In this document: positions 8,340-60,670 of the stretch, piece after piece | How the letters are laid out: the number at the start of each line of letters is the position of its first letter | Numbering within the stretch: the stretch's first letter is position 1 | NCBI GenBank assembly: GCA_008632985.1 | Contig: QPGO01000039.1 | Location: forward strand, 124,001-188,000 | Source: Psammoneis japonica | Lineage: Eukaryota | Length of the DNA stretch: 64,000 bases | Direction of reading: 5' to 3' | Program-made: the position numbers and the translations under genes | The notes under the pieces: generated by a model | What the model was told of the DNA's origin: nothing | Seen by the model: only the letters and a program-made list of their open reading frames with translations | Databases searched by the model: none

Positions 8340-8519
8340 GATGCCTTTTAAGAGACACCGATGGAGTGGACTTTATGGGGTGTGTGCGCGCAAAGTCATG
8401 ACGATCGCCAGCAGGACAAAAGTGCCGCCGCCATTGTGGATCTCGAGAAAGTTGAGGGAGCATCATACGGAGCACAAAACCCAAAACTTTGTGCTGCCGC
8501 CCTTCACAAGGGCTCTACG

Positions 8520-15600: not shown

Positions 15601-16243
15601 TGTTCGGCATCATACGCGAATGTATGTTTTTATGTACAAGCAACGGAAAATAGATTTTTCAATGAATTAATCATGACCTTTTTTAATATTTAAATCAGCT
15701 TTCTTGACATCCGTTAGAATTTTGATTCCTTAACAAAATTGTTTGATTAGTCATTTTTGATTGTTGTGGCCTACAGTACAGTACAGTCACTTTCATTCTA
15801 CATACATAGCAGAACCCCAAATGATAACCGTTATTATTTACACAACATTTTCCGTTCAGATTCCAAAAATGTCAATGAACACCTCCAGAAATTGATTCGT
15901 GGACGGTAAGTATGAACGTACCACATAGTACGTACCGTACTGTAGGTCCTAGGGCCCTACGTCGTAAAAGACGCACAGTGAATAACGCTCATGCATCATG
16001 CCACCGGTAGCATGCATCACTCATCGCTCATCGCCCGCGAAATGAATGAAAGGTGGGGGTATTATTTTTCGAAATGTGACGGGTCCTGCTGCGGTGCAAT
16101 ACATTATTTGTTTGAAGATATCCTTTCATTCGATTTCTTTTAGCTGCTTTTTGCAATTGTCGGTAGAAACAGACTCATCCGGTTAACTAACGTCCAGCTG
16201 GACGCTGTTGCGTAGCTTACATACTTTTGGTCTTTGCTAAAAC

Positions 16244-33500: not shown

Positions 33501-33700
33501 ACAAGGTCCATCATCAGCGCAGTCAGTTACAAACTTTCTCCAGTTCTTCCTTCGCCACAAGCTCAGCAGCCGCATGAAAGGACCACGTGCCCCACTTCTT
33601 GAGCAGCACCACATCATTTCCCCCCCAAAAGCTCAGGGAGGTTCATAGGCTGCATTGAATGTGTTGGAATTTTCGTGTACAGGTGCATGACGAACATGCC
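30600..33700. mobile_element. Degenerate repeat domain with internal tandem duplications
   Basis: TpA/CpG-poor core 30750-33650. Two ~175-bp copies (about 31690 and 31870) and three ~160-180-bp copies starting ctccagaatcagc at about 32182, 32342 and 32522. Confidence 0.55.
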
Positions 33701-37540: not shown

Positions 37541-37551
37541 GTCGAACTTAA

Positions 37552-40439: not shown

Positions 40440-41240
40440 GACAGCTAAGGTGTGAAATCATCCAGCTGACTGCTGAGTCCAGGAGCAGCGCACGTGGTCA
40501 AATGGCAAGCCACCAGAGAGACAGGAGTGCTTCAAAGCTGCCCAGACAGCAAAGAGAGAGCAATGTCAAACAAAAAATCCAAAGCTCAAGAAAAATGTGT
40601 GCAACAAATCTGCAGCCAGTGGTTGCAAGCTGGCCAAAAAAGAAAGAAGCCAGCTGTGTTTGCTTTCTCTGGCTGGCAACAAGTGCAAAAGTTTGTGCTC
40701 ATGGAAAGCTGTAGGTGGCAACAAAGTCATTGCTGAAAAATTCCAAGCATGTGCGGGTGTGACAGCAACCCATGCCAGCAGCCACTGTCATTTGCTTGTC
40801 ACAACAGCTGAGGCTCTTTTCTTTCTTTTCTTGTGACAATGCCAATGGTGTGCTCAACTCAGAGCTCTTTTGTGACAGACCAAGCAAGTGCATCATTTGT
40901 CTTGTTTGTAGATGGGGAGCAGCTCTGCCATGTGAGGATTTTTTGCCCCGTCTGTCATTTGTCTGTGCTGGGCTGCATTGGGGTTTTCTTGTTCAGGCAA
41001 AAAGCTGAGTCTCAGATGATCTGGAAGGGCAGCATGCAGCAAGATTTCCAGAGGTGCAAAAGTCAAAGTGCATGGCCAGTTGTCATGGGTGACTTTTGTG
41101 GTGCACCAAAAGCAGCCATGGTGCTGCTCCCCCCAAGCACACTTGGTTATTTCAAGAAGAGACCAGCTCCTGATGGTGCTTTGTGCACAAAACCAAGGCT
41201 TTGGCTACAGTTGCAGTCATGTGTCAAGAACCAACAACTT
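40440..41240. mobile_element. Short degenerate repeat domain between FKBP and the kinase
   Basis: TpA/CpG-poor, TG/CA-rich, only spurious ORFs. Confidence 0.45.
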
Positions 41241-41740
41241 GCAACGTGAGTCCATGCGTCGACCGTTGTCTCGCGCGCTTCGCACGCACGAACAATACGA
41301 TAGGGCTCCCCGAGCAGCTCGTGGAGTGCGGTGATGATGGAGAGTTGAACGCATCAAACAAAACGACGATGGCGGAGCAACAAGAAATGATGGGCCCTTT
41401 GTCACCATTGACGCACGTTCGCTACTCTTGTCCACTTTGTCACTCAGGAGATGATGTATTTGAGTCAGCGCGCAAAGTTCAAGCAGATCGCTGATCTAAT
41501 ACAGCACAGCGCGAAACCGAGCCTGCCCCACGTCATTTGAGGTTTTGTTGCAAAACACATGAATGACGGCATACAACCATGCCGGATAGCCGTTATCACG
41601 TGAATAAGCGATGGAAATATCCGTTGACATGGAGGCGCACTTTTGGCGAGACTTTGTGTCAAATTCTCCAGCAAAAGAAGCAGCGCAGTCAGTCTCACTT
41701 TTTTCTGTTGACTCACTCACACAGAGAGACGTATAACATC

Positions 41741-43204
41741 ATGGTTCAGACACGAGGCGCTGCGGCGCTCAATCGTCAAAAGAAGATGGCTTTTGAAAAG
41801 CTTGCTGCAAGCCGAAGAAAGCCACTACCAGAGAGTCGGGAAGAGATTGAAGCAGCACTTGCAGAAGCGTCGGATCCGGTGAAGAACCCATGGCTCGAGG
41901 AGTTTGAGATTGACGATGACGTGCTTGGCAAAGGGGGATCTGGATCCGTTCGTAGAGCGACCCACATGGGAACTGGATATGAAGTTGCGCTCAAAAGGAT
42001 TGAAACGACAGGCGACTTCATGTGGGACCTTGTCAAGCGTGAGATCGAGATCCAAGGTTCTTTATGTCACCCTCGCGTTGTTCGTCTCTTTGGTTGTTAC
42101 TTCCTCCCGCCCGATCCGAGCAGCAATGTGTCAGGCACCAGTCCCGTTCGACCCTCCGCCACTGGTAGTTCTCTGCAAGGCGATGATTTAAATGTGGACT
42201 TTAAAAATCCGTCTGTCGGGCGGTTTCAGATTTTTGCTAATGGCACAAGCGACTCCGGCTCCGAAGGAACGGACATCAATTCCGGAGATTTTTATGGCAA
42301 CTCAGAGGCAGCTGGTATCAGTTCAGACGAGTCTGAAGGTAGCGCAGAAAGCTCCGTCTCCCTTCTTGATTTTGAGAAAATGCTAGGTAATATGGAGGTG
42401 ACACGCCGGAAACCGGAACTGAAGTTCAGCATCGTCCTGATCATGGAGCTGTGTCCCAATGGCTCGCTGCAGGATCACTTCGAATCCGCCAAGGCCAAGT
42501 GTCTCCCAGAGAGGAGTGTGGCAAACTACGTGGAGAGCATTGCTGAGGCACTTCTCTACCTACATTCTGAGGAAAACGTCCTTCATCGGGACATCAAGCC
42601 TGCAAATATTCTTTTGTCGGCTGATTGGACCCCCAAGGTTGGTGACTTTGGTATTTCTGTTCGCGACCCGAAACCGCGTCGACAGTCGCTTTTTCGAACC
42701 CCTGGTTTTGCAGCTCCTGAACTTTTGGAAACCGCCTGCTACTGGGAAGGACCTGGTCATGACGAGCGGGTTGACCTGTGGTCCCTAGGTGTCACTGCCT
42801 ACTCCCTCTTAGTTGGCTCCATGCCTTTTCCGGATCAAGACGTCCCTAAACGCAAACACGTGCCGGCGCATGTGCTCAGCGCCCAAGCTAGCATGTGCCT
42901 GGGACACGCAAAAGACACTAAGTCCAAAAAATATTTGGAGAAGCGGCTACAAGAAATTGGTGGGCCTATGTACCTTGGTGTAGAACGTTTTTGCAGAGAG
43001 CTTGACGAACAAGCCTGGAATGACTGCTTTCCACTGGAAGCCCTGGAATTGGAACTCCCGGTTCCTCTTAAATTCCCCGACTTTGTGTCGGAGGAGGCCA
43101 AGGACTTCCTGGGGGGTCTATTGCGTGCCAACCCATGTGATCGCATGTCGCTCGAGGACGTTCAGCAGCACCCTTGGATCCAAAAGTTTCATGCGAAACA
43201 TTGA
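41741..43204 (+). CDS. Aurora-like Ser/Thr protein kinase with a large insertion
   Basis: LGKGGSG, VALK, REIEIQGSLCHP, HRDIKPANIL, DFG, APE, DLWSLG and HPW. First ATG at 41741. Confidence 0.88.
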   Translation: MVQTRGAAALNRQKKMAFEKLAASRRKPLPESREEIEAALAEASDPVKNPWLEEFEIDDDVLGKGGSGSVRRATHMGTGYEVALKRIETTGDFMWDLVKREIEIQGSLCHPRVVRLFGCYFLPPDPSSNVSGTSPVRPSATGSSLQGDDLNVDFKNPSVGRFQIFANGTSDSGSEGTDINSGDFYGNSEAAGISSDESEGSAESSVSLLDFEKMLGNMEVTRRKPELKFSIVLIMELCPNGSLQDHFESAKAKCLPERSVANYVESIAEALLYLHSEENVLHRDIKPANILLSADWTPKVGDFGISVRDPKPRRQSLFRTPGFAAPELLETACYWEGPGHDERVDLWSLGVTAYSLLVGSMPFPDQDVPKRKHVPAHVLSAQASMCLGHAKDTKSKKYLEKRLQEIGGPMYLGVERFCRELDEQAWNDCFPLEALELELPVPLKFPDFVSEEAKDFLGGLLRANPCDRMSLEDVQQHPWIQKFHAKH

Positions 43205-44070
43205 AGGGCCAAGCCCGTGTGGTGAACAGACAGAAAGTTGTTCTGTAGTTGTGTGATGTAAGCCGTAATAAGAATTAGTTTCAATGAAGAAAAACACATG
43301 TACGGAGCTATAAACGAGAGAGAGAGAGCGCTTATTCATTCGATCACTTAGTGGAACAAGCAGGCAAAACAGAAGAAAATTGTACGAAACACTAGCTAGC
43401 TACGGCATTGTAGGTGTGACTAGTGGGTACGATGCACCACAGGTCTACTGATGAAATCATCTGACAAATGCCAAACAGGTGTAGCATCTCGGACCAGAAG
43501 CCGCCTCTATTCTTACCTTCCTCTTTCGTCAACAATCCAACCGTCGATTCCCGTGTATCTCATTAATCAACATTTACAAGTTGGTTTCTCTACTGTTCAT
43601 TCACGGGCGGCGGCGGCGGCGCGCTTTAGAGGCATCAGTACTCCACACTTATTGGCCAATTATACCCGAGATTGTCGTGACCCATCACCTTGAGATTGAA
43701 CCCATACCCAAATTCCATTTCAACTTCGGACACGTGCAAACAATGGAGGACTGCAGACCCTCCTTGATTGGCAAAGATGACGTTCAACACTTGTGCCACC
43801 TGCGGGACATTGTTCGACCTGCACACCGTGTTTCATCACACTTTTGTGATTTCTGCTCGCGGTCTATTTGGTCAGTGGATTTCGTTGGTGCTTTGGGTTT
43901 GTCATGTCCAAAGTCCTTGGCCATCATGAGTGAGAAGATGACACTCTGGTGCACGCAACAAAAGAGGAATGTCAGCAAGTGGTTCCAATGACAAATCAAA
44001 ACATCACATTGTTTTTCTTGCATTTGAACAACAGTCATGATTTGCCTGCAGAAAACAATCAGCAGCACCA

Positions 44071-44267
44071 TGATCATGTGAACATGGCAGGACAAAAAGC
44101 AGCAAAATTGGCCAGCTCATTGGTGCACTGAATTGGAAAGGAGATGGACTCTGGAAGGCATTTCTCACTTGATCATGTGAACATGGCAGGACAAAAAGCA
44201 GCAAAATTGGCCAGCCCATTGGTGCACTGAATTGGAAAGGAGATGGACTCTGGAAGGCATTTCTCAC
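44071..44267 (+). repeat. Near-perfect 99-bp tandem duplication
   Basis: tgatcatgtgaacatggcagg...ggcatttctcac at 44071 and 44170, with one internal substitution seen (ctcat/cccat). Confidence 0.85.
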
Positions 44268-47200
44268 AAGGAATGGAGCAGACAGAGAGCTCTGCTAAAG
44301 CCATGCCATGCAAGGCTGGACCCTGATGTGACACTTGCTCCACACAGAACATCTGTCATGCAGCACACTGGACAAGGAGGTGGGCACTTGTTGACCACAT
44401 CAGAGCACAAGTTAAAAGTGCACAAATCACCCAGGTGCCAAAGCATGCTGTGGCTGTCCCTTTTGGTTAGACTCACTCAACCCCTTTTTTGTTTCAAAAT
44501 GCCAACAAAAGAGCAAGGGCCAAAGCTCAAGCTGTGAGCAGCTGTGGTCCCAGCAAGCAAGGTGAGCTCTGATCTCAAAAAGCCAGGTGGTGTTTGACTT
44601 GAGCAATGCTGTGCATGACAGTCACCAGACAAGAAGGAGCTTGAGATGTTGTGGCATCTCAATGCCAAAATGGGGATTCTCTTCTTTGGCAAGAAGTTGG
44701 CTGGAAAAAAGCGGCTTTTGTTGCTTGCCAATTTTGATCCACTGTGCACTCATTGAGCAATGAGGTTTTTGAGAGAAGCTGCAATTTTGTCATTGCCCAA
44801 GTGTGTCACAAAGGAGGCAGAACAGGGGGGCAGCTTGCAAGCAAGGAGAGCATGCTGCAGGGCTCCTCTTCTCACCTCATTGGGTGGGTGAGTTCTTTTG
44901 TGAGCTGCCTGTGCTTTTTGCTCAATCCATCTGCGGTGCAGAAAAAATGAGTTGTTGCAAACTCACTGTTAGCGCCTTGGGAAATCTTGCTCTCTTGCAG
45001 CTTTGGCTGGCAGCTGGGAAAGTGTCAATGAGCAGTGCAGTGGCTGCTGCATTTGGGAGTGCCAGAGGTCTTGTTGTCAATGGCTTGGAAACAGCAAAAC
45101 CTGCTTTACAGCCCAATCAGCCATGACTTGAACTTTTTTGGCAGAGGACATGCAGACAAAAATGGCTGTTTGGAATGCATGATGATGTGCAGCACAATGG
45201 CCAGCTGTTTTCTAGATTGTCAACATGGTGATCATTGATGAGAAACAAACCATCAAATGACAGTTGTTGGCAAGAGCCAGTTGCACTCCTCACAAAAAGC
45301 AAGCAACTGAAATCACTGCAGTTGCTGGCAGCTTGAGAAGAAGCCAGTTGAACTTTCCAACAACACACAATGATGTTCTCAGCACTTCTCCTGAGTTGCC
45401 AAGCAGTCAATCTGAGAAATGAAACAAACTGCAGGCACATTTGTTTGGTGTCCAATCCCTTGAAAATGGGCGGGAAGTGCAAATGACTGGCAGTCCAAAG
45501 GTTGGCCATGCTGGTCAACCACCACTGACACCCCTTGACAAAATCATCTCCAGTGCCACAGAAGCAGCACCACTTCAATGACTTCCTCCATCTCCCCCAA
45601 GAAATGGGACTCAACATGCATGGTGATGTGCAGAGCAGCTTTCCCATGTCATCTGGGCATGAGCCAACCCATGCCGCTGGCAATGCCCTGTTGTTAGATT
45701 TGACCAAAGCAGCTCTCACTCACATCAGATGAAAATGGCACAAAAAATTGGTGATTTGACCAAGAGGAGAGCTCAGGGTCAGACACAGCAAGGTCAGCTT
45801 GCTTGTTGCTGATGACCACCATCTGTGGATGTTGGTTGACAATGCACACAACTTGCACTCAAAGCACAATCTTTTGGAAGCTGGGTCCAAAAACACACAC
45901 ATCAACAGTTGTTGCCACCCACAATGTGGCGTGCAACTTCTCACCACTTTGCTGCTGAGTGCCCATGCATTCTTCATCTCAACCTGTCAACAGAAAAAGC
46001 AGAACCTCTGGCACTGCACAATGGTTGTGCAAGCAAATTTTTTTCACTGGGGGTGGGTGGGCTTCAAGGGTGCACACACTTCTCCAGTTGGTGGGCAGCC
46101 ACATTGGGGTTTTGAGTGGAGGCATCTCCCCACATTGCGCCAAATCTGTGGCAACACAACAAATGACCATCAGAATCTCAGGCCCTCAATGCTTTGAGCG
46201 ACCACCAATTTTGAGTTAATTTGAGCCAATGCTTTCCTTGTGGAGCTCTCACAAATGACAACCAGCCACTGAGTGGTGGTTGGAAATTGTTGATGGCCCA
46301 TCAAGAAGGCCACAGTGTTGGTGGTGCTCAGGGAAAAAGTTTTGATGACCCAGCATTGGCAAACCTTGTTTGCACAGGCATTTTGTCCCTCAGTGGAATG
46401 TTCACTTGTTTGGTCACTCAGTGGCAACATTTCAACCATTTCTTTGGTCACCTGGCACACAGACCAGCAACTGTCAAGGAGCCAGTTGTCCTGCAATGTC
46501 TGCACTGTGGCTCCAACAGTCATTTGAATCTGGAAATTTTCTAAAGGAGGCTGCATTTCAGCAACTCTTCAATGAAGCTTTTGCAGTGCAATTGCCACCT
46601 GAGTTTGCTGTTTGTCCAGAGTTGAGAGCCTTTGCTGAAGACACAAATGGGAAGACAGTTGCGGGGGAACTGGATTTTCAAACAGCTGGCAACTTACGTT
46701 GGGCTGTTGAGCTTTTGAGAAATGGGAACAAGACCAATGAACATGCACATTGCTTTGACCTGATCAATGGGAAGCATCATTTAGCAGGGCACAAAGCTCA
46801 CACCTCATTGTGGACTTCAGGAGAACTCGTGGGTGCAAACAAGTGAAATCCACACACAAACATTGCACTCTGCACTTTTCCACATCCTTTGAGTCAGTGG
46901 AAATCAAAATGAGAGAGTGCCCACTGTTGAAGAAGCTCATGGATTGATCAAAGCATCATTTGGCCAGCTTGCATTGGCAGAGGGGTAAAAATGTGTGATG
47001 GCTCACAGAAAAACTCAACCTCCCATTGGCCAGCAGCAACAGGAGCTGCTTTTGTAAAGGAGACTGTGAAACAGAAGATCAGCTTGTGACTGACTTTGTT
47101 GTAATTTGTGCTGGCTTTGGGTGAAGAGCAAGTGTTCAGCTGTTGATTTTAATGTGTGGTTGTTTTTGTGTTGATTGACATTTTGCATGGGATGTTGCTT

Positions 47201-48825
47201 TTTGACAAAGTGGCTTTGTGGCATGTGCCAGAGAGGGACCTTGGAAGCCACAGCTGCATTAAACCAGCATGATTATCCAGCAACTGACTTCACAAATGGT
47301 GCAATGTCAAACTCTTTTTCAAATTGCTCCAATGGTGAAACCAATGGCAAAACAGCTTCTATCTTGCAGCATGGTGGTGGGCCAGAGTGGACAATGTTTT
47401 GTGCAAGTGCAAGAAGCTGCAGAGCAACGAGAATGCAAACACAAAAAAAAATGATGTGGAGCTCCAGCAAATGCTTGATCTGCACCTGATTTGGTGATTT
47501 TGCTGCCAAAGGATTTGGCAAAATCCACTTTGCAACCAGTGGTTGCAAGCCAGCCAAAGAGGCAAGATGCTGTGACTGCATTCTTGAGCCGACAGTCAAT
47601 GCAAGAGTCATTGCACTCACCAAAAGCCAAACAGAACTGCCGCTCAAACTCTGAGCATGGCAACCCTGTCTCTGTTGAGTGCTTGCTGAGGCAATTGTGG
47701 CACTCTTTGCCTTTGTTCCAAGAGAAGGTGGTCCTCTTTTTGCACTCGTCTGTCTGTCGGATGGATCATTTGTGCTTGTTGGGAGTGAAGTTGGTGTGAA
47801 AAGTGACTCCGTCACAAACTTTGTTGGAACCGCTTGATGGACAATGATGACAGACGTTTTGTCGTCATCGTTGCGACAGATCCGGGCAGTGCGTACATCG
47901 GAATCAATGGTTGATGTTGTTGCTGTTGTTTTGGCACCATGTCATGAGCATTGTGAGCATCTTGTTGAGATCTCATTGCGATGGGAACAGGAAAATGGCA
48001 GCACATGTGGTGCTTCAATCACGAAATGCATCCAACCCAAAGGACCCGGGGGTGGCAAAGTGAAGTCGTTCCAGTTTGTTCATTTTCACAGTTTTGTTTT
48101 TCTTTGTTGTTGGTTGTGTTGTTTGTGTCCATGGGATGCAATGAATGTGTTCAATGTCCCAGGAGGTCTCGCACTGTTGGCACACGGGGCTGCGGATTTC
48201 ATTGCCTTGAGCTCAAAATCCCCGCAGAAGCGCAAGCAGGTTCAGTGCTAGAGTGAGCCGGTGTTTTTCCTTTGTCCCCTTTCGAAATCCCAGCATGGAA
48301 AAGTCAAAAGGTCAAGAAAAGACAGAGGAATGACTGACAAAAGAGGATCCCATGGAGAGCAAGAAACAGAGGAGCAAAAGGGTTTCCAGGAGTCTCCAAT
48401 CAATGGTGCCAGAGACAAAGGGGGTGTCCCCTCAACGTTGCTGAATGTTGCATCGAACACAAAGGAGACCCTGAACAAAAAAGACAAAAGAGCAATGAGG
48501 TTCCTCAGGAGACATGCATGAGAAGTGCCCATTCTTCTTCCCTGCTCATTGTTCTGGGACACTTCACAAAGTTTCTGCATCCAGGAACTTGCGGCACTCA
48601 AGGGTGGTGCTGTGGAGTTCATCAGTGGCAGCTTTGAAACAAGTCTCAGATCAATGATGTTGGAGGTCAATGACAACAATGTTGTGCATTTGTTTTGCCA
48701 TGATGATGTTGGAGGTCAATGACAACAATGTCATGCAATTGCTTTAGAAAATTTGCCAATGGCAAAATGACATCATGGTTGATCGGCAGCTTGTTGCTCA
48801 CGCAAGTTTTGCATTGCCAGACAAT

Positions 48826-49149
48826 TTAGCATGTGCTGCTGCATGCACTCTCTAGCTGTTTGCTCAAGTCATCAGACCAAACATCATCGGACCATTCATC
48901 ATCAGTCCATGCATCATCTGTCCTGGCATCATCTCTCCCAGCATTGTCTGTCCAAGCATTGTCTGTCCCAGCATTGTCTGTCCCAGCATCGTCTGTCCCA
49001 GCATCATCTGTCCAAGCATCATCTGTCCTGGCATCATCATAACATGACATGAGATCCAAGTCAGAGGTTGCAGCATCATCAGAGAACTCAGCATTTGCAG
49101 AAGCAAACAATGACATGACGAACAGCATCAACAAACAAAATGTTTTCAT
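48826..49149 (-). pseudogene. Signal-peptide ORF with acidic (T/S)DD(A)x pentapeptide repeats (15-bp tandem repeat)
   Basis: MKTFCLLMLFVMSLFASANA followed by DDARTDDAWTDDAGTDDAGTDNAG...; embedded in the hypermutated domain. Confidence 0.55.
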
Positions 49150-50832
49150 TGTGATTTTTGAATGCCCAGTTTGAAATCAGAAACCAAGGCAAGTCAAGTC
49201 ACAAAGGCTCCAATGACTCAATGTTGAGTTGTAGATCAGGAACCAAAGGCCCATGAACTCACCAGTCTAAACGTGAAGAACACACAGCAGATGGTTGTTC
49301 TGTTTGAATCAGCACGTGGCCTTGCCTTGTGTGCCAAAGGCATAAAATGAGCTCATGGCTGCAAACGTGTGGTCAGGGGAAGGCCACTCATCGCTCAATT
49401 TAAAGGAGCAATGAATGAATTACGTCACTTTGTCAGAGGAGGACTTGTCCAGAAAATCACTGACTTCAAGCTGACACGCACATGACCCTCTGGCACTGGA
49501 ACAGTTGGTGCAATTGTGTGTGCTGCAGGTTCAACTGATGCTGACATGATGCTCAATGCCTGCAGCTGTGTCAAAGCTGCAAGCACCTTAAGGATTTTAG
49601 CCAAAAGCTTAGAACAGAGACAAGTTTGATCTAGACGAGAGCATCCAGCTTGTAAATCATCAAGCAAACGGCTTTGAAAACATGTCCATGTCTGTGATTG
49701 GAGATGGTGAAGTGCAAAAGAAGAAAACAAGCAGAAATCAATGCATGTGGTCAATTGCCGCTGACACCATGGGCTGCTTGCTGTCGACTGAAATGTCAAC
49801 ATTGCCACCAGGTGTTGCAACGCTCATGACTTTGGTCACCCGATGCTGCATTTGATCGACCGCATCCAGATCAGGCAGTTTGGTTCAAACACAGGCGTGG
49901 CTTTCCTCTGAGAGTCTTCATTTGTTGATGCCACACTCACACTTGATTCTCCAATGGCTTCTTTTGCTTTGTTGACAGTTTTCTGAGATGAATTCTGGAA
50001 ACAACACGTCCGCAGGGGCTCGAACTTGGTGTTGAGTTTGGGTGGCTGCAGAGAGGGCTTCGCATTTTGGGTTCCCACCAAGTGCTCTCGCAAGATCGCC
50101 GCAACACTTTTGGTGTCATCAATGATGCCACTCTGCTTGGAAGCATCAACAACCTAAAGCAGGCGGAGCAAATTGCTTTGCAGCTGAGACAAGATTGTCG
50201 GGTCCAATCCTGGTGCCATGGGCGCCAGTGTGCCGACAACTTGTGTGCCATGTGCTTGTTGGAGATCCCAGCCAAACTCTGGGATGGTCGAGATGTCATT
50301 GCAGATTCTGCTGTTGTCCACCAGATTGTTTGCCAAAAGTGAGAGGATGCATTGGGGTTCCCATTTCGGCCTTGAATTGAGATGGAGTCTCAAAGGTTCA
50401 CTTGTCACATTTCTCCCAACACACTCCTGTGGTGCCACTGAGGTTGATTGACCTGCGGGACCAAACTGAATGCGTTGATTGCCCTTCCTGGGCCTGTTCT
50501 TGTTCTTGTTCTTGTCCATCTTTCTTTCCTTGGGTTCCTTGGTTGGTTGCTTGGACGGTTGTGGTGACTTGACGACGGCAGCAAGGCCCATGATTGGGTC
50601 TCGAAATTTTCAAAATAGAGCGCCCTGAAGTGGCTTGCTCACATGCAATCTCCTGTCATTTCTGATTTGGGACACCATTTCACCTTCAGTTCTCCACTCG
50701 CCATTTGGTCTGTGATGAAGAAATGCCAAATGTTGATGTGCTTGGTGCGTTTGCTGCTAGAGGCGTTGCCGTTCTTTTCAGAAGCATGGCACTCTTTTTG
50801 TCTTGGTGCATGACGTCATCCACAACCTCGCA

Positions 50833-51220
50833 ACGCGCTCCAGCCCCAGGTGGGACTCCGTGTGACATTGGGCCCGTAGAATTCTACGTGCGAGCTCCCC
50901 AGTGCGAGAATTTAATCAATGCATGTGTTTGTCTTCAACATCAAATAAACCGCCAAGTTTGTGGTGCAATTGTGCCTCTTGCCACTCGACGTTTTTGCAA
51001 ATGCGCCTGCCCTGCGCGATTCTTAAGACGTCATAGAATTGCGCTGCAACAAAAAATGTCAAAAGTTGTTGGACGGATCGCTCAACAAGTGCACCGTAAA
51101 ATGACACAAAATGTCGAAAAAATCACGTAGAAATCTATGTGCGCGACATGCGACGTGATTCAAAAAACCATCAATGTCACAGTTCAGCAGTGCGAGGTCC
51201 CACCTAGACCTGGAACGCGT
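50833..51220. mobile_element. MITE, 388 bp, 24-bp imperfect TIRs, 6-bp TSD CTCGCA
   Basis: Left end acgcgctccagccccaggtgggac; right end reverse complement acgcgttccaggtctaggtgggac. TSD at 50827-50832 and 51221-51226. Removal restores Copia EAQGCEVVDD. Confidence 0.88.
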
Positions 51221-51808
51221 CTCGCATCCTTGAGCTTCCACAAAGTGGCGCATCCAACAATGGCATGAAGTCATCAGCTCCAACAACCTCGGCTTTGGCA
51301 GAGCTGCAAGTGTTGAGCTTCTGCTTGGTGGACCCCGTTGCAGGGAATCCTCGTCCTGGGGACAATCCTCCTCCGGAGTGTCCTTGCATGTTTGGATGGA
51401 CCGCACATGCTGAGTCGATCCACCATTTAAGGACACCACTTCCGTTGGCACTCAAAATCAGGGGCGACGTGCGTGCATCTCTGAGACACTTCACAAGGCC
51501 AGCAAGTTTGTCCCAGTCATCCTTGTCTGGTTCTCACACACTCTCGTCGTGAGAAATGTGATTGCTGTGCATGTGTCAGGTCGGGCTCATTTGGTGGCAC
51601 ATGATGTCTTGGCTGCCAAGTTGTGAAACTGTGCAGCCTTGTCTGCTGATGGCTTTTTGCAGTCTTCGTCAACTGCAAGCAAGTCTTTCGGTGCTGCGTT
51701 CGACTTGGCACCCTTTTCCTTTGGAGCAGCCTTGTCGAATGCTGATGGGATCTCATCGATGCACCCTGTCATTGCAATCTTGACTTGACCATGGACGGTG
51801 TGGTCTAA

Positions 51809-53050
51809 GACTCTGTCCAAACACTGTCATGGGCATGATCACACCCACGTCACGCAGGCTTTTATGATGACGTCACAGGTCACACCCGCAATGTTCTGTC
51901 CAAACACATTCGTGCGTGCTGTGTGACAGCAGCCCCACCTCATGGACATTAGTCGAATGATTCAAACTTACAGCACGCGAAGCAATGCCAGATGCAACAT
52001 GAATGAACCAGCGATGACAACACGACAAGAACGACATGACCATGTCGACGAGATCGCAACCACAAGGCGACAATGAGCCACACAAAGGACACCCATTGAT
52101 AAAAAAATCATGCTTGTGCACAACTTATGGCTTGATCAGTTGTCTGAAAGAGTGCATGACATGAATTTATTTTAAGAAACTGTTTGGCGAAATGGTTGTG
52201 TCAGAAGAGTCCAGAATGGCACACAAAGCCCCCCAAAGACAACAAGCGGCCCATGCATGGTCTCATGTGGTTGCCTCATATAACATGCAGCCACATGCGC
52301 TTTGGCCGCATCAAAAAACGATGCACATCGGTTGTTTTCGTGTTTCGTCGGTGGGGTGTGATGTTTGGGTATGATGTTTAAAATAGAAGATTAAGGGAGC
52401 CTGTGTAGAGCGGAAGGGAACAGCAGAGGGAGGCACGGAGGTAGCTGTAGAGATGGCAGAGTAGAAGGGTTGAAGGACGCAAGACGAAGGGCGTTTTGAG
52501 GAAGGCATGGGTGAGGAGGGAGTGGGGAGAGAGGAGGTGAATCGAAGGATGTGCGTAGAAAGGTGAAGAACGACGTTGCAGCTGAGAGTTTGGGTGGCCC
52601 ACTGGGATGGGGTGGCCATACGGCAGGCACTCCCAAAGCAATCGGCGGACAGACGACGCCATGCGAAGTCAGCGGAGGGAAGGATTGCAGACGGAGACGA
52701 CAAAGCGTAGAGGAAGGCGGAGCAGGAGGCATCAGAGTGACGAAAGTCAGAGGAAGAGGACCAGGGTGGCTTGGGCTGAGAGCAGACAGAGGAGGATGTA
52801 GAACCAAAGAGCAAGCGGTGAGCAAAGCAGCCGAGACCACCAAGGTGATCTACAGTGAAGGGGAGCAGGAAGATGCCATCATCGAGGAAGTCTGTTCTTG
52901 CGAGAACAAACATCCTCGTGAAAGTTGGCATGGCCTAAAATTACGTCATGCATGGGGCCAATGACCACTGATTTTTTCGAAGAGGCTCATTTTAGGTGCT
53001 GTGACGTCAGGCATGATCACACGCATGCATGACAGTGTTTGGACAGGGTC
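51809..53050. mobile_element. Non-autonomous PIF/Harbinger-like element (1242 bp), 23-bp TIRs, TAA TSD
   Basis: Left end gactctgtccaaacactgtcatg; right end reverse complement gaccctgtccaaacactgtcatg. TAA at 51806-51808 and 53051-53053. Removal restores LGMTL-DHTV. Confidence 0.9.
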
Positions 53051-53524
53051 TAAAGTCATTCCAAGACATTCATGATTTTGCCTCTGCTGACGGTCATCTT
53101 TCCAGATCCGTCTTCAAAAATGCTCTCGCATTCCTTAAGAAGCCATTCCATCATCCTGTCTGCCACTTTCCTCTTGCGGTGGCTCAGTTTGCAGTGTCGT
53201 CCACATGGAACAAGACAGTCATCTGCATTCCTTTGATGTCCTTGTTGAAGATGCAGGGATTGCATGGGTTCACAACAAAACCAATCAAATCAAGACTTTT
53301 AGTGAACTTACGGCAGCAGAGCAGGCTTGCCACCACAGTGCCGCAGAGGGCGTTGTGGCACCCAACCAACAACTGTTTCACTCCCTTCTTGTCTGTTGTG
53401 ATGTGCAAAGGGCAAGCAAACATCTGGAGCCATCTCCAGCAGGATGTCAACCAGGACTCCACCTAGCCTGATGATGACCATGTCCTTCTTGTGTTCGATT
53501 TGGGTTTAGATGAATGCGTTTGGG

Positions 53525-54081
53525 ACGTGTTCCAGCCGCGCGTGAACACACGCATTTAAAAAAACAACATTTGCGCGATTTTCGCATGGCCACTAACTTG
53601 TGATCAAACTGTTGAGTAAAAAAAATGCTTCACACATTTGCAAATGTTTTTGACACACATTGACAAGACCCACCTGAGTGTGTTAAAACAATCGGTTGCT
53701 TTCCATTTCTCATTTTTGTTGCGCTAATTGCATCACAACACAACGGATGATTTTTGGCGCAACTGTTGCCGTCATTGGGATGTCACCCAAACACATCTTT
53801 CTACGATGCCGCTTGGCATGTTTTCCACCTGCAAAGAAATTGCACAGTGTGAAATGTGCTGACGTAGAATCAGCATTGAGTCCACTGAGGAGGTTTGTGA
53901 CACATGTCCCATGAGAACTTGAATGCCCCACAAAAAACTGTTTAATTGTCCACACTCTGTGCGCCCACAAAAGTTAGTCTGCCCAAGTGTTTTACATGAA
54001 AATGCTCCATGTGCTAAAAGACACACAATTTATGTTCAAAATCAATTGTCGTTTTGTGCGTCACCTGGGACTGGAACACGT
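53525..54081. mobile_element. MITE, 557 bp, ACGTGTTCCAG TIRs, 6-bp TSD YTTGGG
   Basis: Perfect 11-bp TIR acgtgttccag/ctggaacacgt. Flanks tttggg (53519-53524) and cttggg (54082-54087). Removal restores Copia DIPNAF. Confidence 0.85.
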
Positions 54082-56281
54082 CTTGGGATGTCAGCCACTG
54101 CGACATCATCTTCTTCTTTGGCATCAATGACACACAAAAGCAAAACTGCTTCTGTTGACACTGTTGGCAAGCTGGCATCCTTCTTTGAGATGCAGTCTCA
54201 TTGCTTGTTTCCACCTGCAACGGCACAGCCTTTGACACTCTTGTCGCGCTTTTCCTTGAGGAACATGTGGGAATCCAGTGCGGTTCAACGTTGACGCAGT
54301 GTCAGTTCCCTCCAATGCAGGGGTTCGAGCGCATCCCTGAAGTGCAGTTGCTTCATTTCGGAGCAGGCCGCTTTGTAGGCTCTGTCTCCCCATTGCTTGA
54401 GACCAGCCTTGAGGGAAAGCTGTGTCATGATCACAGCCACAACATCGGGTTCCTGCTGGCAGAAGTCATGCTGCACAAACATGTGTGAGTCAGGATTGAG
54501 TGCGCTGTGGGTCTCCAGTTTCATTGCGGCATGTGAGCACTTGTTGCCAGTCATGCTTGGGATGCAGCTCTTGGTCTGAGTCTTGGTCCGCGCACAGAAC
54601 AACGCAGTCCTTCAGTGGGTTGTTCCATTGGCTGTTGAGCCGGTTCTGGTGGTGGTGCTGGTGTTTCAGGTTTGGCAGGGGCCTGAATTTTGTCTTGTGG
54701 AGGTGGAATGTTGAGATCATCCTCTGTTTCGTTGACTGGAGGAGGTTTGTAATTGTCCCATGCATCATCCGCAGCATCCACTCCTGGGAGCTCAACATTG
54801 CCATCGTCGGCTTCCTCAGGTGGCAACAGGTCCACTCCTGGGGTAGGAGCAAGGGGGTCTTCTGGCATGAGAGCATTGTTGATGAGCTTGTCCTCAGGTT
54901 CCACTCCTGGGACTTCCACATCTCCGATGAGATGGCCTTTGCAATCAGCAAAGATCAGGTCTTCCAGTTGGTCCTTGCCGAGTTCATCAACTTGCGCAAC
55001 AATGACATTGGGCACAGGGAGTTCATCCCAGTTGCAGTGTGCAATCTTCTTGCCAGAATCAAGAGCCATGGGTCAACATCCTCCTTGGACACTCCGGTTT
55101 TGGCAGTTTTCATGCATGGGGCAAGTGGATGCACATGCAATGTCGACATTGTTTTGACTGTTAGATTCGTTCCATGTGGTGCCATCATCTAGCTGCAGTG
55201 TTCACAGGCAAATGTTTTGTCTGTTGGTTGTCGTGCAATCACCCATGTCGGCCTTCAACGTGACGAAACATTGAGCAGCTTAATTGGGCCTGACCGGGGT
55301 CAAGATTCCATGTCCCTCGACTGCCTCCCCCACATTGGACCTTTGAGGCATGCCAGCAATCCATCGTTTCTCTGTGTGTCTGAATTGCTTTGGAGAGGTC
55401 TTTTAACAGTGTAACGTCATGAAGATTGAGTCACACTGGGTCAGATTGTGGTGCTCACACTGAGATTTGCATGGGGTGAGTGCAGTTCAAGGTGTTTTCT
55501 TGACCCCCCCAGCAAACATGAAAGTCTCCCAGACAACCAACACAATTGCCACCGACTCCCACACTTTGATTCAATCTCTTTCCACAATCAAAATGTGCAT
55601 CATCTGCCTGGCCGCCAGCTTCAAATGGCTTTGCCATGAAACCATGCCAATGGCAGAAAGCTTTGAATGTCCAAAGGTCTGACATTCTTGCATCTGTGCA
55701 TGAGTCAACTTTTGGCCAGATCCAACTTGAACCCAAGCAGCAATGTTGCCATCAGTTTGGACTGGGGCACGTGTCCATTGCAATGATGAGGCGACATGAC
55801 AGTGTGGAAATCGAGTGATGTTGATGACTGTTCCCTGGTTTTGAAACAAAAAAGCACGAGTGAGACCACATCGCGGACGGCCACCGGCGCTCATCAATGC
55901 TGACACGCGCGCTCCCGCCCTGGCCTCGCGCCTCGCCTCTCACCTCAAAACTCAAGATCCTTTGTGCTTTTGTTGCTCTTGGCTCTTGTCCTCCGCCAAC
56001 ACTGCTTTTGCAATTTACAAGCACAGTCAAATCTGCTCAATGATTGGTGTCTTGGCCTGATGCCGTCAAAAAAGCAGAAAACGCAGGTCAAAACCGCTTG
56101 CAATTTTGAAAGTTCTGACAACGGCGGCCACTGCAAACCCCATGGCTCGCCTTCTATCTCCCCTCCTCAAGACAACAACAATGATGCGCTTTCATCCTCA
56201 TTGCAGAATCTTTTGAGTCAAAATGACTCCATGATGAAAGCTGTCAGGTGTTCCAGAGACAGTGTCATCTTTGTCGTGGAC

Positions 56282-56827
56282 TCAACATTCAGAATCTTCT
56301 GCAGGACATTCGGGTCCGGTTTCATCGTGTTGGCAGGTGTAAATCAATGTTGTTTCGATTTCTGCATCGTGCTTCATGCACAGTGACTCGGATGTGCATG
56401 TGTTGTTGATCGAAACTTGTGTGAACGTCTTGTCTGTTTGCTTGTTGTTGTTGTTGTCAAACTGCACGACAAAGTCACTGCAGCTGAAAACGCTGCCATT
56501 GTGATCACTTGGTCTGATCAAAATCACGTCTAATGCTTCTCCTTGTGCGATGTCATTGTTGTCACCTGGACACATGATCATGTCCATCACAGCAGTGTTG
56601 CAAGACAGACAATCAAGAGAAAAGGTGTCGTCGCCACAGCAATTCGATTTCGCCATCATGGTCATCGCAAAGTGTTCGAGCAAACGGCGCGTGCACTCTT
56701 GCGGTTTTGGCACGAATGCGCAAGTCTGTTCCTTACCCTGACAGCTTCTCCTAGACAACAGCTGTTCATCACAATGTGGAAGGAAGTCCAGATGCATTGC
56801 GAAGGATCTGTTCACCACAGCGTTCAT
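56282..56827 (-). pseudogene. Host-like Cys-containing protein fragment within the hypermutated domain
   Basis: 181-aa frame with protein-like composition but only one Tyr; no TE motif recognised. Confidence 0.35.
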
Positions 56828-57082
56828 TCTCGCGATTGGATGACCGGCAAATTGTCGACAAGAAGAAATCGTGGCAAGCCAAGAAAATGAAAAATTGGCT
56901 CGTCAAGCCAGAACTAAAAGACAGCACAAACAAGAACAAGAAAGTCAAGAAGCAGAGCAAGAAAGCAGAAGCAGAGACAAGGGAATGAAGAATGGCAGAC
57001 GCAGATGATGCAGCCAAGTGGAAGGAGGAGCTCTGTCATGGTGCACTGGATGGGAGAGAAGTGAATGGTGCAGCTGGATCTA

Positions 57083-57085
<3 letters not shown>

Positions 57086-57116
<31 letters not shown>
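57086..57116 (+). repeat. (GA)n microsatellite
   Basis: Run of GA dinucleotides. Confidence 0.9.
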
Positions 57117-57118
<2 letters not shown>

Positions 57119-57934
57119 GCAAGAGCAGGGGATGCACATTGACCAGACGAGACACGAGACCTGTGTTGCCCCCTGCTTTGTCTTGATGTCAGCGCAGTGT
57201 TGACTGTTGAGTGCCTTTGTTTGTTGTGTGGGCAGCAAGATGGCTGGAACAATGGACTGCAGAACAGTTTGAGCCAATGTCACTTGTCTGACTTTGTGTC
57301 TTGTTGGTCTTGCTTTGGCTGAGTCTGTCTTTTCTTTTCACACAAGGTTTGCAAAGCAGTCATCTGGAACATGAAAGCCAATGGCCTTGAGCTCACGCAA
57401 GGAGCTGGATCGAAAAGGCTTGTCTCGAGGTGGCAAGCGCTCAACCAGTTGCTTGTGGGTGACCAGAGTTGGCTCACATCCATGCGCATTCACAAGTTTC
57501 TTCACTGTGTCCAACGTTTCTTCTCGGAAGTGGTGCTCTTTCGAAGAGTCACTGAAAGAATGCCATCTCAGCACCCAGCAAAGATGCTCTAGATTTCTTG
57601 GGCATTGTTTTCCGCCTGGGCGTTTTGCGATGATGGCAAGACGGTCCTTCACTGAAAGACAGGTTTGAGTTGAGAACAGATCATTGTTCATCTGGTGTGG
57701 CAACAATGCAAGTGCTGACCTGCGCGAGCGGGAATCCCGCACCATTGTTTGTGTCAGTTCCTGACTTCTTGGGAGGAGACACCCAGGACCATCAGACAGC
57801 CTGACGGTTTACCCCAGCCATGTGGCACCATGTCACACCCTGGGTGTGATGGCCATTGTGCCCATGCCATGCAATTGACCACTTGCCACAAGTTCTCACA
57901 TTGATGCAGGGAAGGCGTTGAACCAAGGGACATC

Positions 57935-59350
57935 ATGTCCACCTCCATGGGTGGTGGAGATTGCCTTCTCTGTTCAGTGTGCCAACTCCCCTTTTCTGCA
58001 CGGGGTGGTTTGGAGTCACATCTTCGGCAGTCCACCAACTGCCAGCAAGCTCTTGCCACTGCTGGAGCTGCCACTGCTGCTGCCAACTCCACAGATGGCA
58101 ATGATGGGGATCTCAGTGAAGCTCCACCTCTTCGATGCATTGAATGCCGTTGTCAAGGTGCAAATTCTGTGACAAACACCACTCAAATTGTTCCCTCCAC
58201 CCTCAACCCCGGAACAAGGAGATCTTCCAGACCAGCAGCATCACAAGCATGGCACCCCCAGTCCTCTGCCTCCAGAACGTCACCTCCTCCAGATGCATTG
58301 ATGGTGTCATCTGTCCATCACAATGAATCAGCCGAAGCCACATCTTTCATCATGGCCACTGAGGAAGAGCAAAGCAACAACGTTGGTGCTGGTGCTGGTC
58401 TCCCACCAGCACATCTTCTGGAAGGTCAAGCAATGAATCTGGCCGACAATGAGGACTTCAACGCACCCATGGTGCATTCTAACGAGATTCATGCAATGGC
58501 TGGGATCCTGTGACTGTGTCAGATGTCAGGTGTTCCCGTTGAGGTTGCTGATGACATCACAGCCACTGTTCACAACAAGCACGCCTCTGGCAGCCTTTCA
58601 GCTGCACGCCCCCCTCCCAAGACCCGAACCGTCATTTCCAAACTAGAAAAAATGCTCCCTGGTGTTGTGAAACCAGTCTTGTTCAGGGTGCCACTCAAAA
58701 CAGTCTCCATCAATGCTCAATTTTGACACAATCCTGACTTTGTGTCCTCTGCCCCCATCCCTTCACACAATTTCCTGGAGCAACTAGATGATCATTTTGC
58801 AGATCCCATTTTCCACAACATCAACAATCTCAACGTTGATCCTCATGACCACTGGCGCGCGCATCCAACAACTCCCTCTGGTTGCAACACCAGCAATGGT
58901 GACTGGAACCTGAAGTCAGAATCAGAAGTCAAGGATGGTGAGTGGCAGAACAAGTTTGCTGCAGTGTTCTTTGGTCCCAAGCTCCCTCCCGTCTTTCACA
59001 CATTCTTGATTTTCTACACTGACAAGATGGGGAATGGAGCAGTTTCCCCTCTCTCCATGGAACCGTTTGTGTTCTCACACTTGCTCTCATTAAAGAATCT
59101 GCCCGGAGGAACCACCGTTGCTGGAGGCCCCTTGGATTTGTGCCATGTTGCAGCAGCCCCTTGATCTCCTCCAAACAGAATGTTTTTTGGCAGGAATGTC
59201 CGGAACTGCCATCGCATCCTGAGCAAAATTCTGGAGCCCTTGTTTGAAGCCCAGAAGAATCCGCGATGCAACTTGGGCTTGTGGCAGAGAAATGGGAGGG
59301 CAAAGAACTTGGCTGAAGGAGTCCATTTGGTTGATTCGAGGATGACTCCT
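57935..59350 (+). mobile_element. Degenerate Plavaka-like transposase with N-terminal C2H2-type zinc finger
   Basis: CSVC..PFSARGGLESHL; FLEQLDD...NLNVDP.D.W; NGDW; LIFYTDK.G...MEPFVFS; WRPLGFVP; RNCHRIL. Stops and frameshifts. Confidence 0.65.
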
Positions 59351-59649
59351 TCCTTGACTTGGTGGCAATGATGGACTTGAGCCTTGGAGCACACAGCTCC
59401 AGGCCAAATCCATTGGTGAACAGCTCGGTTTCATTGAAATCGGGTGCATCAAACGTGAAGGACGGGTCGGGGTCACCGCCATCGTCGTCGCCGTCCTTCA
59501 ACAATTCGGCTGCCATGGTTGATTGCTTGTGGTGCGTTGGGTGGAAGTTTGTGCAGAAACGTGTAGAACGCAACAGTGCACCCTCTCTCAGCTGAGTCCG
59601 TGCACTGCTGCAATCTATGGTTCATAGAGTTGATGTCCGGAGGCTGTCA

Positions 59650-60670
59650 AATGAAGTGATGAGTGTCCATTGCAGGGCAAGGGATGTTGAAGTTGTTGCC
59701 TCTGCATGACGCCCATTGCTTCGTTGTCTGAGGAAAACTCAGATGGCAGAGGAGTGACAAAGTCATCCAGAAACAGCAGGGGGACTCACCCATTTGCGGA
59801 AGCTTCACCTTAAATTGTTTTGGAGTGAATGTGCAATGGGCATCTGCATTGTTGGTCACGCGTTGTCACACGAATGGCCAAAAATCCTGTGCTGCCCACA
59901 TCAGATTCTCACACCCAATGGGTGGCAAATTCCCACATGGTGGTGTGGGATTTGCCACACATGTGGGTGTGCCCTTCACAACATCATTGCCACACCAGAT
60001 GTTGCGCTCCAGCATGAAAATGGCGATGGAGTTCGTTGTCTCCTTGCGTGTCTCCATCCGAGTTGAGCCATTCATTGTCATTTGCCTTGTAGTCCCACTG
60101 TCCACAGCGGACAAAGTCATGGCAAGTTGTTCCATCTTCAGGGCGAAACTCACAGTCCAGGATGTGCGCTCCGTTCAGCACAAGTCTTCGCCCGCGTTTC
60201 AGGCATCCCACAAAGAACGCTTCTTGGGAAAGCGGGCAAGAAAAGGAACGACACATCTGGTCATCTTCTCACAAAGCTTTTGGCGCCATCTCCGAGATCC
60301 ATCGTCATCTTCATCATCATCACCCTCTACATGCTGATGCCTGCATTGGATCATGTGCGACAAGATCTTGATCTCTTTCACGCAACCCTTGTCAAAACGA
60401 CGAGCTTGAGCAGCATTCAGCCCCCCGGATGGGAGAAGAAGAGCCTGGGCACCAGCGGTAGAACATCATGCAGATAGAAACGGCACATGGCGGAGGAATT
60501 TAGCACACCTGAGTGTGGAACGTGATCGGCATTATCTTGGCCCAGATTTCGGGAGGGAGAAACGGCAGCGGCCCAGCAGGGTTACCGTAGCATTGACTCC
60601 TGGTCTGTCTGCCAACCGTTTTCCACACCGCCCCATCACTACGCCTCTTCCTTTTCGTCGTCGTTGTTGT
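59650..60670 (-). pseudogene. F-box-like family pseudogene (paralog of 62627-62971)
   Basis: LPFLPPEIWAKI..DHVPHS.V.N.SA.CRF.LH; then, after frameshifts, AQARRFDKG.VKEIKI...VVPFLARFPK. Confidence 0.7.

What the first reader, a model, noticed from the sequence alone, without database searches (positions are those of the whole stretch)
43900..50800. Surviving TpA sites show a flanking-base preference (YTAR spared, RTAY lost)
By eye, residual TA in mutated domains is mostly CTAG, TTAG, CTAA or TTAA. YTAY and RTAR occur occasionally, and RTAY (GTAC, ATAT, GTAT, ATAC) is almost absent; I saw one GTAC near 47893 in a less-mutated patch. The same pattern holds in 320-1730 and 8520-11620. A strand-symmetric tetranucleotide preference suggests enzyme specificity for alternating purine-pyrimidine RTAY.
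Basis: seen in the sequence. Interest (0 to 1): 0.75.

Follow-up and report, generated by a model that had tools for sequence, protein, structure and literature searches.

The report
Sequence fingerprint of a TpA mutator
In this diatom's transposon-rich DNA a mutation process turns TA into TG or CA, and it hits the A about three times faster when a pyrimidine follows it on the same strand, a fingerprint that could identify the unknown enzyme.

Summary
Observation confirmed. In 43900-50800, 23 of 37 surviving TA are YTAR and 1 is RTAY; nearby genes show the reverse (199 and 380 of 1,225). A 370-kb genome sample repeats this. The cause is TA>TG/CA hypermutation of transposon-rich domains, polarised by repeat copies and separate from CpG decay.

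At 177 sites with TAY on one strand and TAR on the other, the TAY adenine was hit more at 130 and less at 23. The base 3' of the A carries the effect (pyrimidine about 3x); a purine at -2 adds nothing. RTAY is simply hot on both strands. Outer flanks matter too: TTTAAA and TCTAAA are nearly immune.

TpA hypermutation itself is published for Bigelowiella (bioRxiv 2026), with no flank rule in the parts I read. This scan earlier noted both the process and TAY on other pieces of this genome. New here: the quantified extended motif, and LINE relatives from other organisms with the same erasure. The best mechanism is enzymatic DNA adenine deamination; the enzyme is unidentified, with ADAT2 and a dsRBD-less ADAR-like protein as candidates.

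The parts
43706..60458 (.). TpA-erased domain that contains the finding (TA O/E 0.11, CG O/E 0.42; survivors YTAR 60, RTAR 33, YTAY 25, RTAY 4)
   Evidence: two-state segmentation
43900..50800 (.).
47893..47896 (.). The only RTAY (GTAC) in the focal block, in a CpG-richer patch
50833..51225 (.). Copy of family C, a high-copy 390-bp MITE-like element with imperfect terminal inverted repeats; 20 of 30 ancestral TA sites lost
51804..53055 (.). Copy of family B, a 730-bp MITE-like element with terminal inverted repeats, interrupted by a LINE end; 37 of 52 TA sites changed to CA or TG, 29 of 33 CpG kept
52377..52880 (-). 5'-truncated 3' end of a young 6.2-kb non-LTR retrotransposon (family L), inserted in the family B copy
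1..1721 (.). TpA-erased domain (TA O/E 0.12)
8375..11687 (.). TpA-erased domain (TA O/E 0.09)
13629..15612 (.). TpA-erased domain (TA O/E 0.05)
30717..33645 (.). TpA-erased domain (TA O/E 0.09) with dispersed copies elsewhere
40447..41422 (.). Short TpA-erased domain (TA O/E 0.10)
41567..43204 (+). Protein kinase gene next to the domain, unmutated control (segment TA O/E 0.52)

Best explanation
A host process acts on transposon-rich, silenced domains and converts the A of 5'-TA-3' to G, on either strand, one site at a time; the result reads TA>TG or TA>CA. The 5' T is almost obligatory. Counting the mutated A as 0, the rate rises about 3-fold with a pyrimidine at +1 and 1.5-fold with A at -2, and falls with A at +2 (0.65) or T at -3 (0.5). 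Favoured target: roughly 5'-R-A-T-[A]-Y-Y; near-immune: T-Y-T-A-R-A. Once either strand is hit the TpA is gone, so survival depends on the sum of both strands' rates, which yields RTAY lost and YTAR spared. SHOWN: direction, TA specificity, transition purity, DNA level, strand-resolved motif, fit to genome-wide survivors. INFERRED: the chemistry is enzymatic deamination of adenine to hypoxanthine in DNA, fixed by replication; targeting follows chromatin state rather than pairing of repeats. UNKNOWN: the enzyme. Candidates in the genome are ADAT2 and a dsRBD-less ADAR-like deaminase.
For: Direction: 36 of 57 TA-bearing sites in family B and 123 of 186 in family L show TA, CA and TG together; 1 and 3 include CG. 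Eleven columns with conserved Tyr in outside homologues read Cys 20, His 8, Tyr 17, Phe 10 in five open LINE copies. Specificity in family C (29 copies against three TA-rich natural copies): A>G 290/1421 at TA, 9/1880 at AA, 4/1189 at CA, 1/1218 at GA; transversions at TA 2/1421; C>T at CG 45/1415. Non-coding DNA elements are hit on both strands, so RNA editing of a retroelement intermediate cannot explain it. Strand test 130:23, events 1,164 vs 406; non-coding families alone 15:0 and 17:5. Factors with site-bootstrap intervals: +1Y 3.31 (2.67-4.20), +2A 0.65 (0.50-0.85), -3T 0.49 (0.35-0.66), -2A 1.51 (1.20-2.01). Alignment-derived rates predict the ten survivor classes in the independent genome sample (log r 0.94, chi2 67 vs 604 for a flat model). 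The same TA>TG/CA spectrum arose de novo in Bigelowiella mutation-accumulation lines, where deamination was proposed (10.64898/2026.01.13.699255). Evolved TadA prefers YAC on DNA (PMC12703980).
Against: Sequence cannot tell a lesion on A from one on the paired T. No enzyme is shown. Known natural adenine deaminases with a 5' U preference favour a purine at +1, the opposite (fungal Tad2/Tad3: A or G; ADAR: slight G; PMC11156358). Evolved TadA also edits CA, which is untouched here. No strand-coordinated runs (z 0.60, -0.12, -0.36), so no processive tracts. The fit to survivors is imperfect (TTAA 85 seen vs 49-57 predicted; CTAC/GTAG 24 vs 48-50). In family B, ATAA and TTAT are hit equally (20 vs 23) and ATAC exceeds GTAT. 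Copies are related, above all in the LINE, so event counts and likelihood gaps are inflated. Outside this genome the strand test is weak (L183 15:8, p 0.21) or flat (L186/L190/L227 3:3, 2:1, 4:3). The genome encodes endonuclease V, which can act on inosine (recalled).
Confidence: 0.62

Rival explanations
1. The mutator reads only TpA; the flank effects come from DNA shape or opening (rigid A-tracts such as TTTAAA resist flipping), not from an active site, so the motif will not point to one enzyme family.
For: The outer-flank effect is symmetric: a model in which it acts on both strands fits better (3768) than +2 alone (3893) or -3 alone (3816) at equal parameter number; TTTAAA 23 seen vs 22.6 at genic density, TCTAAA 32 vs 34.8. 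A-tract rigidity is recalled, not tested.
Against: The main +1 effect is strand-specific, which a property of the duplex step alone does not give easily; G at +1 protects nearly as much as A.
Confidence: 0.15
2. The lesion is on thymine in 5'-RTA (an oxidised or alkylated T that pairs with G), made by an unknown T-modifying enzyme, perhaps related to the many cytosine methyltransferases here.
For: The same data read on the other strand give 5'-R-T-A. The genome has 27 DNA-methylase matches.
Against: No TET/JBP match (0 candidates; weak evidence). A 145:1 transition purity suits hypoxanthine better than oxidised T (recalled).
Confidence: 0.12
3. Error-prone gap filling by a polymerase-eta-like enzyme during repair of deaminated 5-methylcytosine.
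For: Pol eta makes WA hotspots (PMC6423074). TA loss and CpG loss share domains and correlate across family C copies (rho 0.49).
Against: AA is 40-fold colder than TA; transversions are nearly absent; no strand-coordinated patches; loss does not rise near CpG (rho +0.37, 0.03, 0.02 with distance); copies with 15-23 of 30 TA lost show no CpG loss.
Confidence: 0.06
4. One reading: a protein recognises the symmetric alternating tetramer RTAY and mutates either strand.
For: Survivor classes rank RTAY < mixed < YTAR; ATAA/TTAT are balanced in family B.
Against: It predicts equal TG and CA outcomes at asymmetric sites; observed 130:23. The -2 purine factor is 1.04.
Confidence: 0.03
5. Artefact of composition, selection on codons, newly created TA sites, or sequencing error.
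For: Some survivors may be new TA sites; the LINE is coding.
Against: Windows were chosen by CpG, not TA; the effect is strongest in non-coding families; loss rates measured in alignments predict the survivors; short-read contigs agree with the assembly.
Confidence: 0.02

Closest known systems
TpA hypermutation of integrated viral DNA in Bigelowiella natans (Mettrop et al., bioRxiv 10.64898/2026.01.13.699255; read parts 1-3 of 5, abstract to conclusion, plus a term search; figures, methods and supplements not seen)
   Same: TpA>TpG and TpA>CpA transitions only, on both strands, confined to foreign or mobile DNA, leaving TpA-poor, CpA/TpG-rich clusters; adenine deamination proposed.
   Different: Here a diatom; targets are MITEs, LINEs and captured gene copies; 158 of 368 sampled kb have TA O/E below 0.2, whereas the viral region there is at 0.45. 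The main text has no occurrence of flank, context, trinucleotide or diatom. Its figure 2B and mutation table, which I could not see, may hold flank data.
Repeat-induced point mutation (RIP) of ascomycetes (recalled)
   Same: Dinucleotide-specific transitions that erase mobile DNA, with sharp domain borders.
   Different: Opposite direction (RIP makes TpA from CpA). No strand-coordinated runs here. An 85-91% identical paralog pair is untouched, and the Bigelowiella target is single-copy.
Fungal Tad2-Tad3-Ame1 A-to-I mRNA editing and ADAT2/3 (PMC11156358, passages)
   Same: Strong U/T at -1; A to I.
   Different: Acts on RNA and favours A or G at +1; here DNA and a pyrimidine at +1.
Metazoan ADAR and protist ADAR-like proteins (PMC11156358 passages; PMC11946409 section 9 and one supplementary table)
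   Same: Adenine deaminase fold that works on duplexes; this genome has an ADAR-like gene, and one is listed for Bigelowiella.
   Different: ADARs have weak flank preference with G at +1 and act on RNA; protist ADAR-like activity on DNA is untested.
Laboratory-evolved TadA adenine base editors (PMC12703980, one passage)
   Same: A to G in DNA; YAC preference overlaps TAC.
   Different: Engineered; accepts CA, which is cold here (4/1189).
Polymerase eta A:T mutagenesis in somatic hypermutation (PMC6423074, passages)
   Same: A to G hotspot at TA.
   Different: WA includes AA, and mutations come in repair patches; neither is seen.

Membership tests
Bigelowiella-type TpA hypermutation | Almost only A:T>G:C transitions | tested here: met
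   290 A>G vs 2 transversions at TA, family C; 226 vs 5, family B
Bigelowiella-type TpA hypermutation | Confined to TpA, both strands | tested here: met
Bigelowiella-type TpA hypermutation | Restricted to foreign or mobile DNA, genes spared | tested here: met
   erased domains hold MITEs, LINEs and gene copies
Bigelowiella-type TpA hypermutation | Ongoing, about 1000-fold raised rate in some lineages only | not testable with these tools
   Copies vary from 1 to 24 of 30 sites lost and 2 of 8 listed allelic differences in the block are TA-type, but no rate per generation
Bigelowiella-type TpA hypermutation | Same enzyme or same flank motif (homology of the two processes) | not testable with these tools
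   enzyme unknown in both; that preprint's supplements are closed
RIP | C:G>T:A at CpA | tested here: not met
   C>T at CA 1/1160
RIP | Triggered by sequence duplication as such | tested here: inconclusive
   Clustered methyltransferase copies at 91-96% identity are erased; the L118/L127 pair at 85-91% is not (67 of 106 TA kept, changes balanced)
RIP | Strand-coordinated tracts | tested here: not met
ADAT2/3-type deaminase action | U/T at -1 | tested here: met
ADAT2/3-type deaminase action | Purine at +1, as in fungal mRNA editing | tested here: not met
   +1 C 2.7, T 3.6, G 1.1 relative to A
ADAT2/3-type deaminase action | ADAT2 and ADAT3 genes present | tested here: inconclusive
   ADAT2-like gene in L056 (label from recalled motifs); no ADAT3 recognised
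ADAR-type deaminase action | Catalytic A_deamin domain in the genome | tested here: met
   L165: HAE, PCG and CSDK motifs; ADAR1/2 are the best solved relatives
ADAR-type deaminase action | G favoured at +1, weak -1 rule | tested here: not met
Polymerase eta mutagenesis | WA target including AA | tested here: not met
   9/1880 at AA vs 290/1421 at TA

The most novel reading that the evidence does not exclude
Diatoms and other algal lineages share a genome-defence system built on a natural adenine deaminase that works on chromosomal, possibly double-stranded, DNA in silenced domains. Its footprint (5'-R-A-T-[A]-Y-Y) matches no described deaminase, and the conserved dsRBD-less ADAR-like protein, present here and listed for Bigelowiella, is the enzyme or its core.
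Probability: 0.22. Interest if true: 0.93.

Novelty: new variant of a known kind. Interest (0 to 1): 0.68.

Why it matters
A:T>G:C genome defence has one published report, a 2026 preprint, and no enzyme. A quantified, strand-resolved motif is a cheap filter: any candidate protein or any other genome can be checked against it. It already argues against polymerase eta and against unmodified fungal-type ADAT or metazoan ADAR specificity. The process has rewritten over 40% of the sampled DNA here and appears in LINE relatives from other organisms, so it may shape many algal genomes and mislead transposon dating and annotation (tyrosine-free frames, lost stop codons). A natural DNA adenine deaminase would also interest base-editing work, where such activity had to be evolved in the laboratory.

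Tried and rejected
1) Majority-state and singleton counting in the LINE mis-polarises hypermutable sites (apparent CA>TA excess; singleton TA and CG rates about equal); replaced by three-state and strand-outcome analyses. 2) A search with the focal block found only short 69-81% matches, so it cannot be polarised directly; the rates come from neighbouring families. 3) Protection by CpG at +1/+2 (TACG): 0.73, interval 0.51-1.07, not established. 4) Flank TA depletion does not predict loss within family C copies (rho -0.05); most copies sit in erased flanks, so the test is weak. 5) Per-copy loss is over-dispersed (variance/mean 4.1 vs 0.57), but it tracks other changes (rho 0.53), so bursts cannot be told from age. 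6) No TET/JBP and no MPG glycosylase match; absence is not shown. 7) A metagenome scan with a mutated retroelement frame found nothing. 8) None of 27 protein homologues of the LINE was tyrosine-poor. 9) No RNA holder listed. 10) Paper searches found no report of TpA erasure in diatoms or of its flank preference; the Bigelowiella preprint came from a lead and search 34. PMC9399415, PMC13403082 and PMC10661471 (passages, one section part) gave no usable motif. 11) An intact parent for the erased methyltransferase copies was not found by DNA search.
Full report
Setting. The window lies on contig C37 of a 91-Mb eukaryotic assembly. Ordinary genes (kinase, AAA ATPase, ion channel and others) alternate with sharply bounded domains poor in TA and CG and rich in CA and TG. 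The named best relatives of one host gene are all diatoms, so I call the organism a diatom.

The observation. In 43900-50800 there are 37 TA in 6,901 bases: YTAR 23, RTAR 8, YTAY 5, RTAY 1. The genic segments give 199, 314, 332 and 380 of 1,225 (p 1e-12). I fetched 37 stretches of 10 kb (three more requested did not exist). Of 368 one-kb windows without N, 158 have TA O/E below 0.2 and 102 have CG O/E below 0.4. Choosing windows by CG avoids circularity. Those 102 hold 347 TA, of which 200 are YTAR and 13 RTAY, against 1,111 and 2,056 of 6,779 in 167 genic-type windows. CpG survivors show no comparable bias. Short-read contigs agree with the assembly and show single-copy depth over the block (one sample, possibly the source).

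What removes TA. Three repeat families beside the block gave alignments: C (390 bp, 32 copies), B (730 bp, 13 copies) and a 6.2-kb LINE (30 copies). Near-duplicates L010, L072, L025 and L013, and short or very diverged matches, were left out of the site model. TA is ancestral: the same site shows TA, CA and TG in different copies at 36 of 57 TA-bearing sites in B and 123 of 186 in the LINE, with CG at only 1 and 3. Columns with conserved tyrosine in 27 outside homologues read Cys 20, His 8, Tyr 17, Phe 10 in five LINE copies. In family C, A>G occurs at 290 of 1,421 TA opportunities, 9 of 1,880 AA, 4 of 1,189 CA and 1 of 1,218 GA; transversions at TA are 2 of 1,421 and CpG transitions 45 of 1,415. 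So the process is TA-specific, transition-only, faster than CpG decay and separable from it. It hits non-coding DNA elements on both strands, so it works on DNA. TA loss also runs ahead of CG loss across domains.

The real motif. Whether a site became TG or CA shows which strand's A changed. Over 257 ancestral TA sites and 4,392 site-copies, 177 sites have TAY on one strand and TAR on the other. The TAY strand was hit more at 130, less at 23, equally at 24 (C 15:0, B 17:5, LINE 98:18). Negative log-likelihoods: no context 4216; symmetric R/Y 4143; single-strand +1 pyrimidine 3957; adding a -2 purine 3956. Relative rates at +1 are A 1, G 1.1, C 2.7, T 3.6. With one fitted dose, these rates predict the ten survivor classes of the genome sample (log r 0.94; chi2 67 against 604 for a flat model), with TTAA under-predicted and CTAC/GTAG over-predicted. 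Related copies inflate the likelihood gaps, so I rely on site counts and site bootstraps.

Outer flanks. A at +2 (0.65) and T at -3 (0.49) lower the rate, and A at -2 raises it (1.51), each with a bootstrap interval excluding 1. Because T at -3 on one strand is A at +2 on the other, this outer effect is symmetric, and a symmetric term fits better than either side alone. TTTAAA survives at genic density (23 vs 22.6) and TCTAAA nearly so (32 vs 34.8), while 67 of 136 hexamer classes have no survivor. This hints that duplex structure matters, or that the enzyme contacts both strands.

How hits accumulate. Neighbouring events in a copy are not strand-coordinated, loss does not rise near CpG, and family C copies range from 1 to 24 of 30 sites lost, tracking other changes. 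Two of eight listed allelic differences in the block are TA-type and five CG-type. Targeting is not simply duplication. Clustered methyltransferase gene copies are erased and nearly tyrosine-free, but an 85-91% identical paralog pair is not. I infer that silenced chromatin is the target; no methylome was available.

Beyond this genome. Of 80 metagenome loci with relatives of the LINE, four have TA O/E of 0.11-0.33 and 76 have 0.45-0.87. L183 (34% protein identity to our LINE) has no tyrosine in 1,062 aligned residues. Of 143 TA in its 75%-identical relative L177, 103 read CA or TG and 6 are kept, whereas a control relative keeps 37 of 90. Survivors in L183 and L242 are YTAR in 18 of 35 cases against 156 of 1,028 in 15 close relatives (p 1e-6). 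The strand test there is 15:8 (p 0.21). A third lineage (L186, L190, L227) differs among 97%-identical copies largely by TA>CA/TG, with no strand bias in small numbers. The host organisms are unknown.

Candidate enzymes. Searches found dCMP, guanine-type and RibD-type deaminases, a TadA-like and an ADAT2-like gene, and two A_deamin genes. One looks like ADAT1 (label from recalled motifs). The other, L165, is an ADAR-like deaminase with intact catalytic motifs and no other Pfam domain in its three exon frames, conserved across diatoms. Protist ADAR-like proteins without dsRNA-binding domains are described, and the supplementary table lists one for Bigelowiella among the less certain sequences, for three diatoms, and none for Fistulifera solaris (PMC11946409). 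The asparagine that the Bigelowiella preprint highlights in ADAT2 appears present here; from recall it is the usual eukaryotic residue, so it is not diagnostic. Nothing links either gene to the mutations yet.

Comparison with what is known. The process works like the TpA hypermutation seen in Bigelowiella natans and meets the three features I could test; homology is untested. It resembles RIP in logic but fails RIP's defining chemistry. The +1 pyrimidine rule is opposite to fungal Tad2/Tad3 editing and to ADAR, overlaps the YAC rule of evolved TadA, and the cold AA argues against polymerase eta. Searches found no paper on this in diatoms; the library lacks most subscription journals, and the preprint's supplements were closed. 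Earlier notes of this scan reported the process many times in this genome and proposed TAY twice. I had reached the trimer reading before the first look-up and tested it independently; the preprint lead came from those notes.

Verdict. It is a new variant of a recently described kind, with a motif that makes the enzyme question testable. Confidence: motif about 0.9; adenine deamination with active-site reading about 0.6. Interest 0.68.

Noticed in passing
L122, L123, L124, L128 (G000 C297, C301): Several clustered copies of a cytosine methyltransferase gene, 91-96% identical, are TpA-erased and nearly tyrosine-free; the genome has 27 DNA-methylase matches in all.
   Followed up: partly
L118 and L127 (G000 C10): A methyltransferase gene and an 85-91% identical paralog 65 kb away; neither is TpA-erased.
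   Followed up: yes
L165:2672-4388: ADAR-like deaminase without dsRNA-binding domain, conserved in centric and pennate diatoms; its alignment lacks an obvious match to the ADAR2 flipping loop (loop recalled). A CCCH zinc-finger gene lies downstream.
   Followed up: partly
L166:1877-2338: TpA-erased fragment of a host nucleobase deaminase gene inside a mutated domain, with His where the intact relative in L055 has Tyr.
   Followed up: no
L055:313-1785: A nucleobase deaminase domain fused in one frame to what looks like a 2-oxoglutarate/Fe dioxygenase domain (label from recall).
   Followed up: no
L060-L079: Young 6.2-kb LINE whose copies keep 1,253-residue open frames despite TA loss, because the process removes rather than creates stop codons; even the least mutated copies are TA-poor in coding parts.
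   Followed up: partly
L183, L242, L186, L190, L227: Metagenome LINE relatives from other organisms with the same TpA erasure; L183 keeps CpG at O/E 1.0, so erasure occurs without CpG decay.
   Followed up: partly
window 10063-11744: Degenerate GT-rich tandem repeat array with long open frames on both strands inside an erased domain.
   Followed up: no
window 44071-44267, 15186-15370, 48857-49049: Tandem duplications of 99, 99 and 15 bases; the first is 99% identical and TA-free in both copies, so it arose after erasure.
   Followed up: no
window 37550-37910: Another high-copy short element within otherwise genic DNA (read depth far above background).
   Followed up: no
window 60464-60576 and 62677-62790: Diverged duplication at 2.2-kb spacing in unmutated DNA, probably tandem paralogous genes.
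   Followed up: no
G000: Endonuclease V gene present; no MPG glycosylase or TET/JBP match found.
   Followed up: partly
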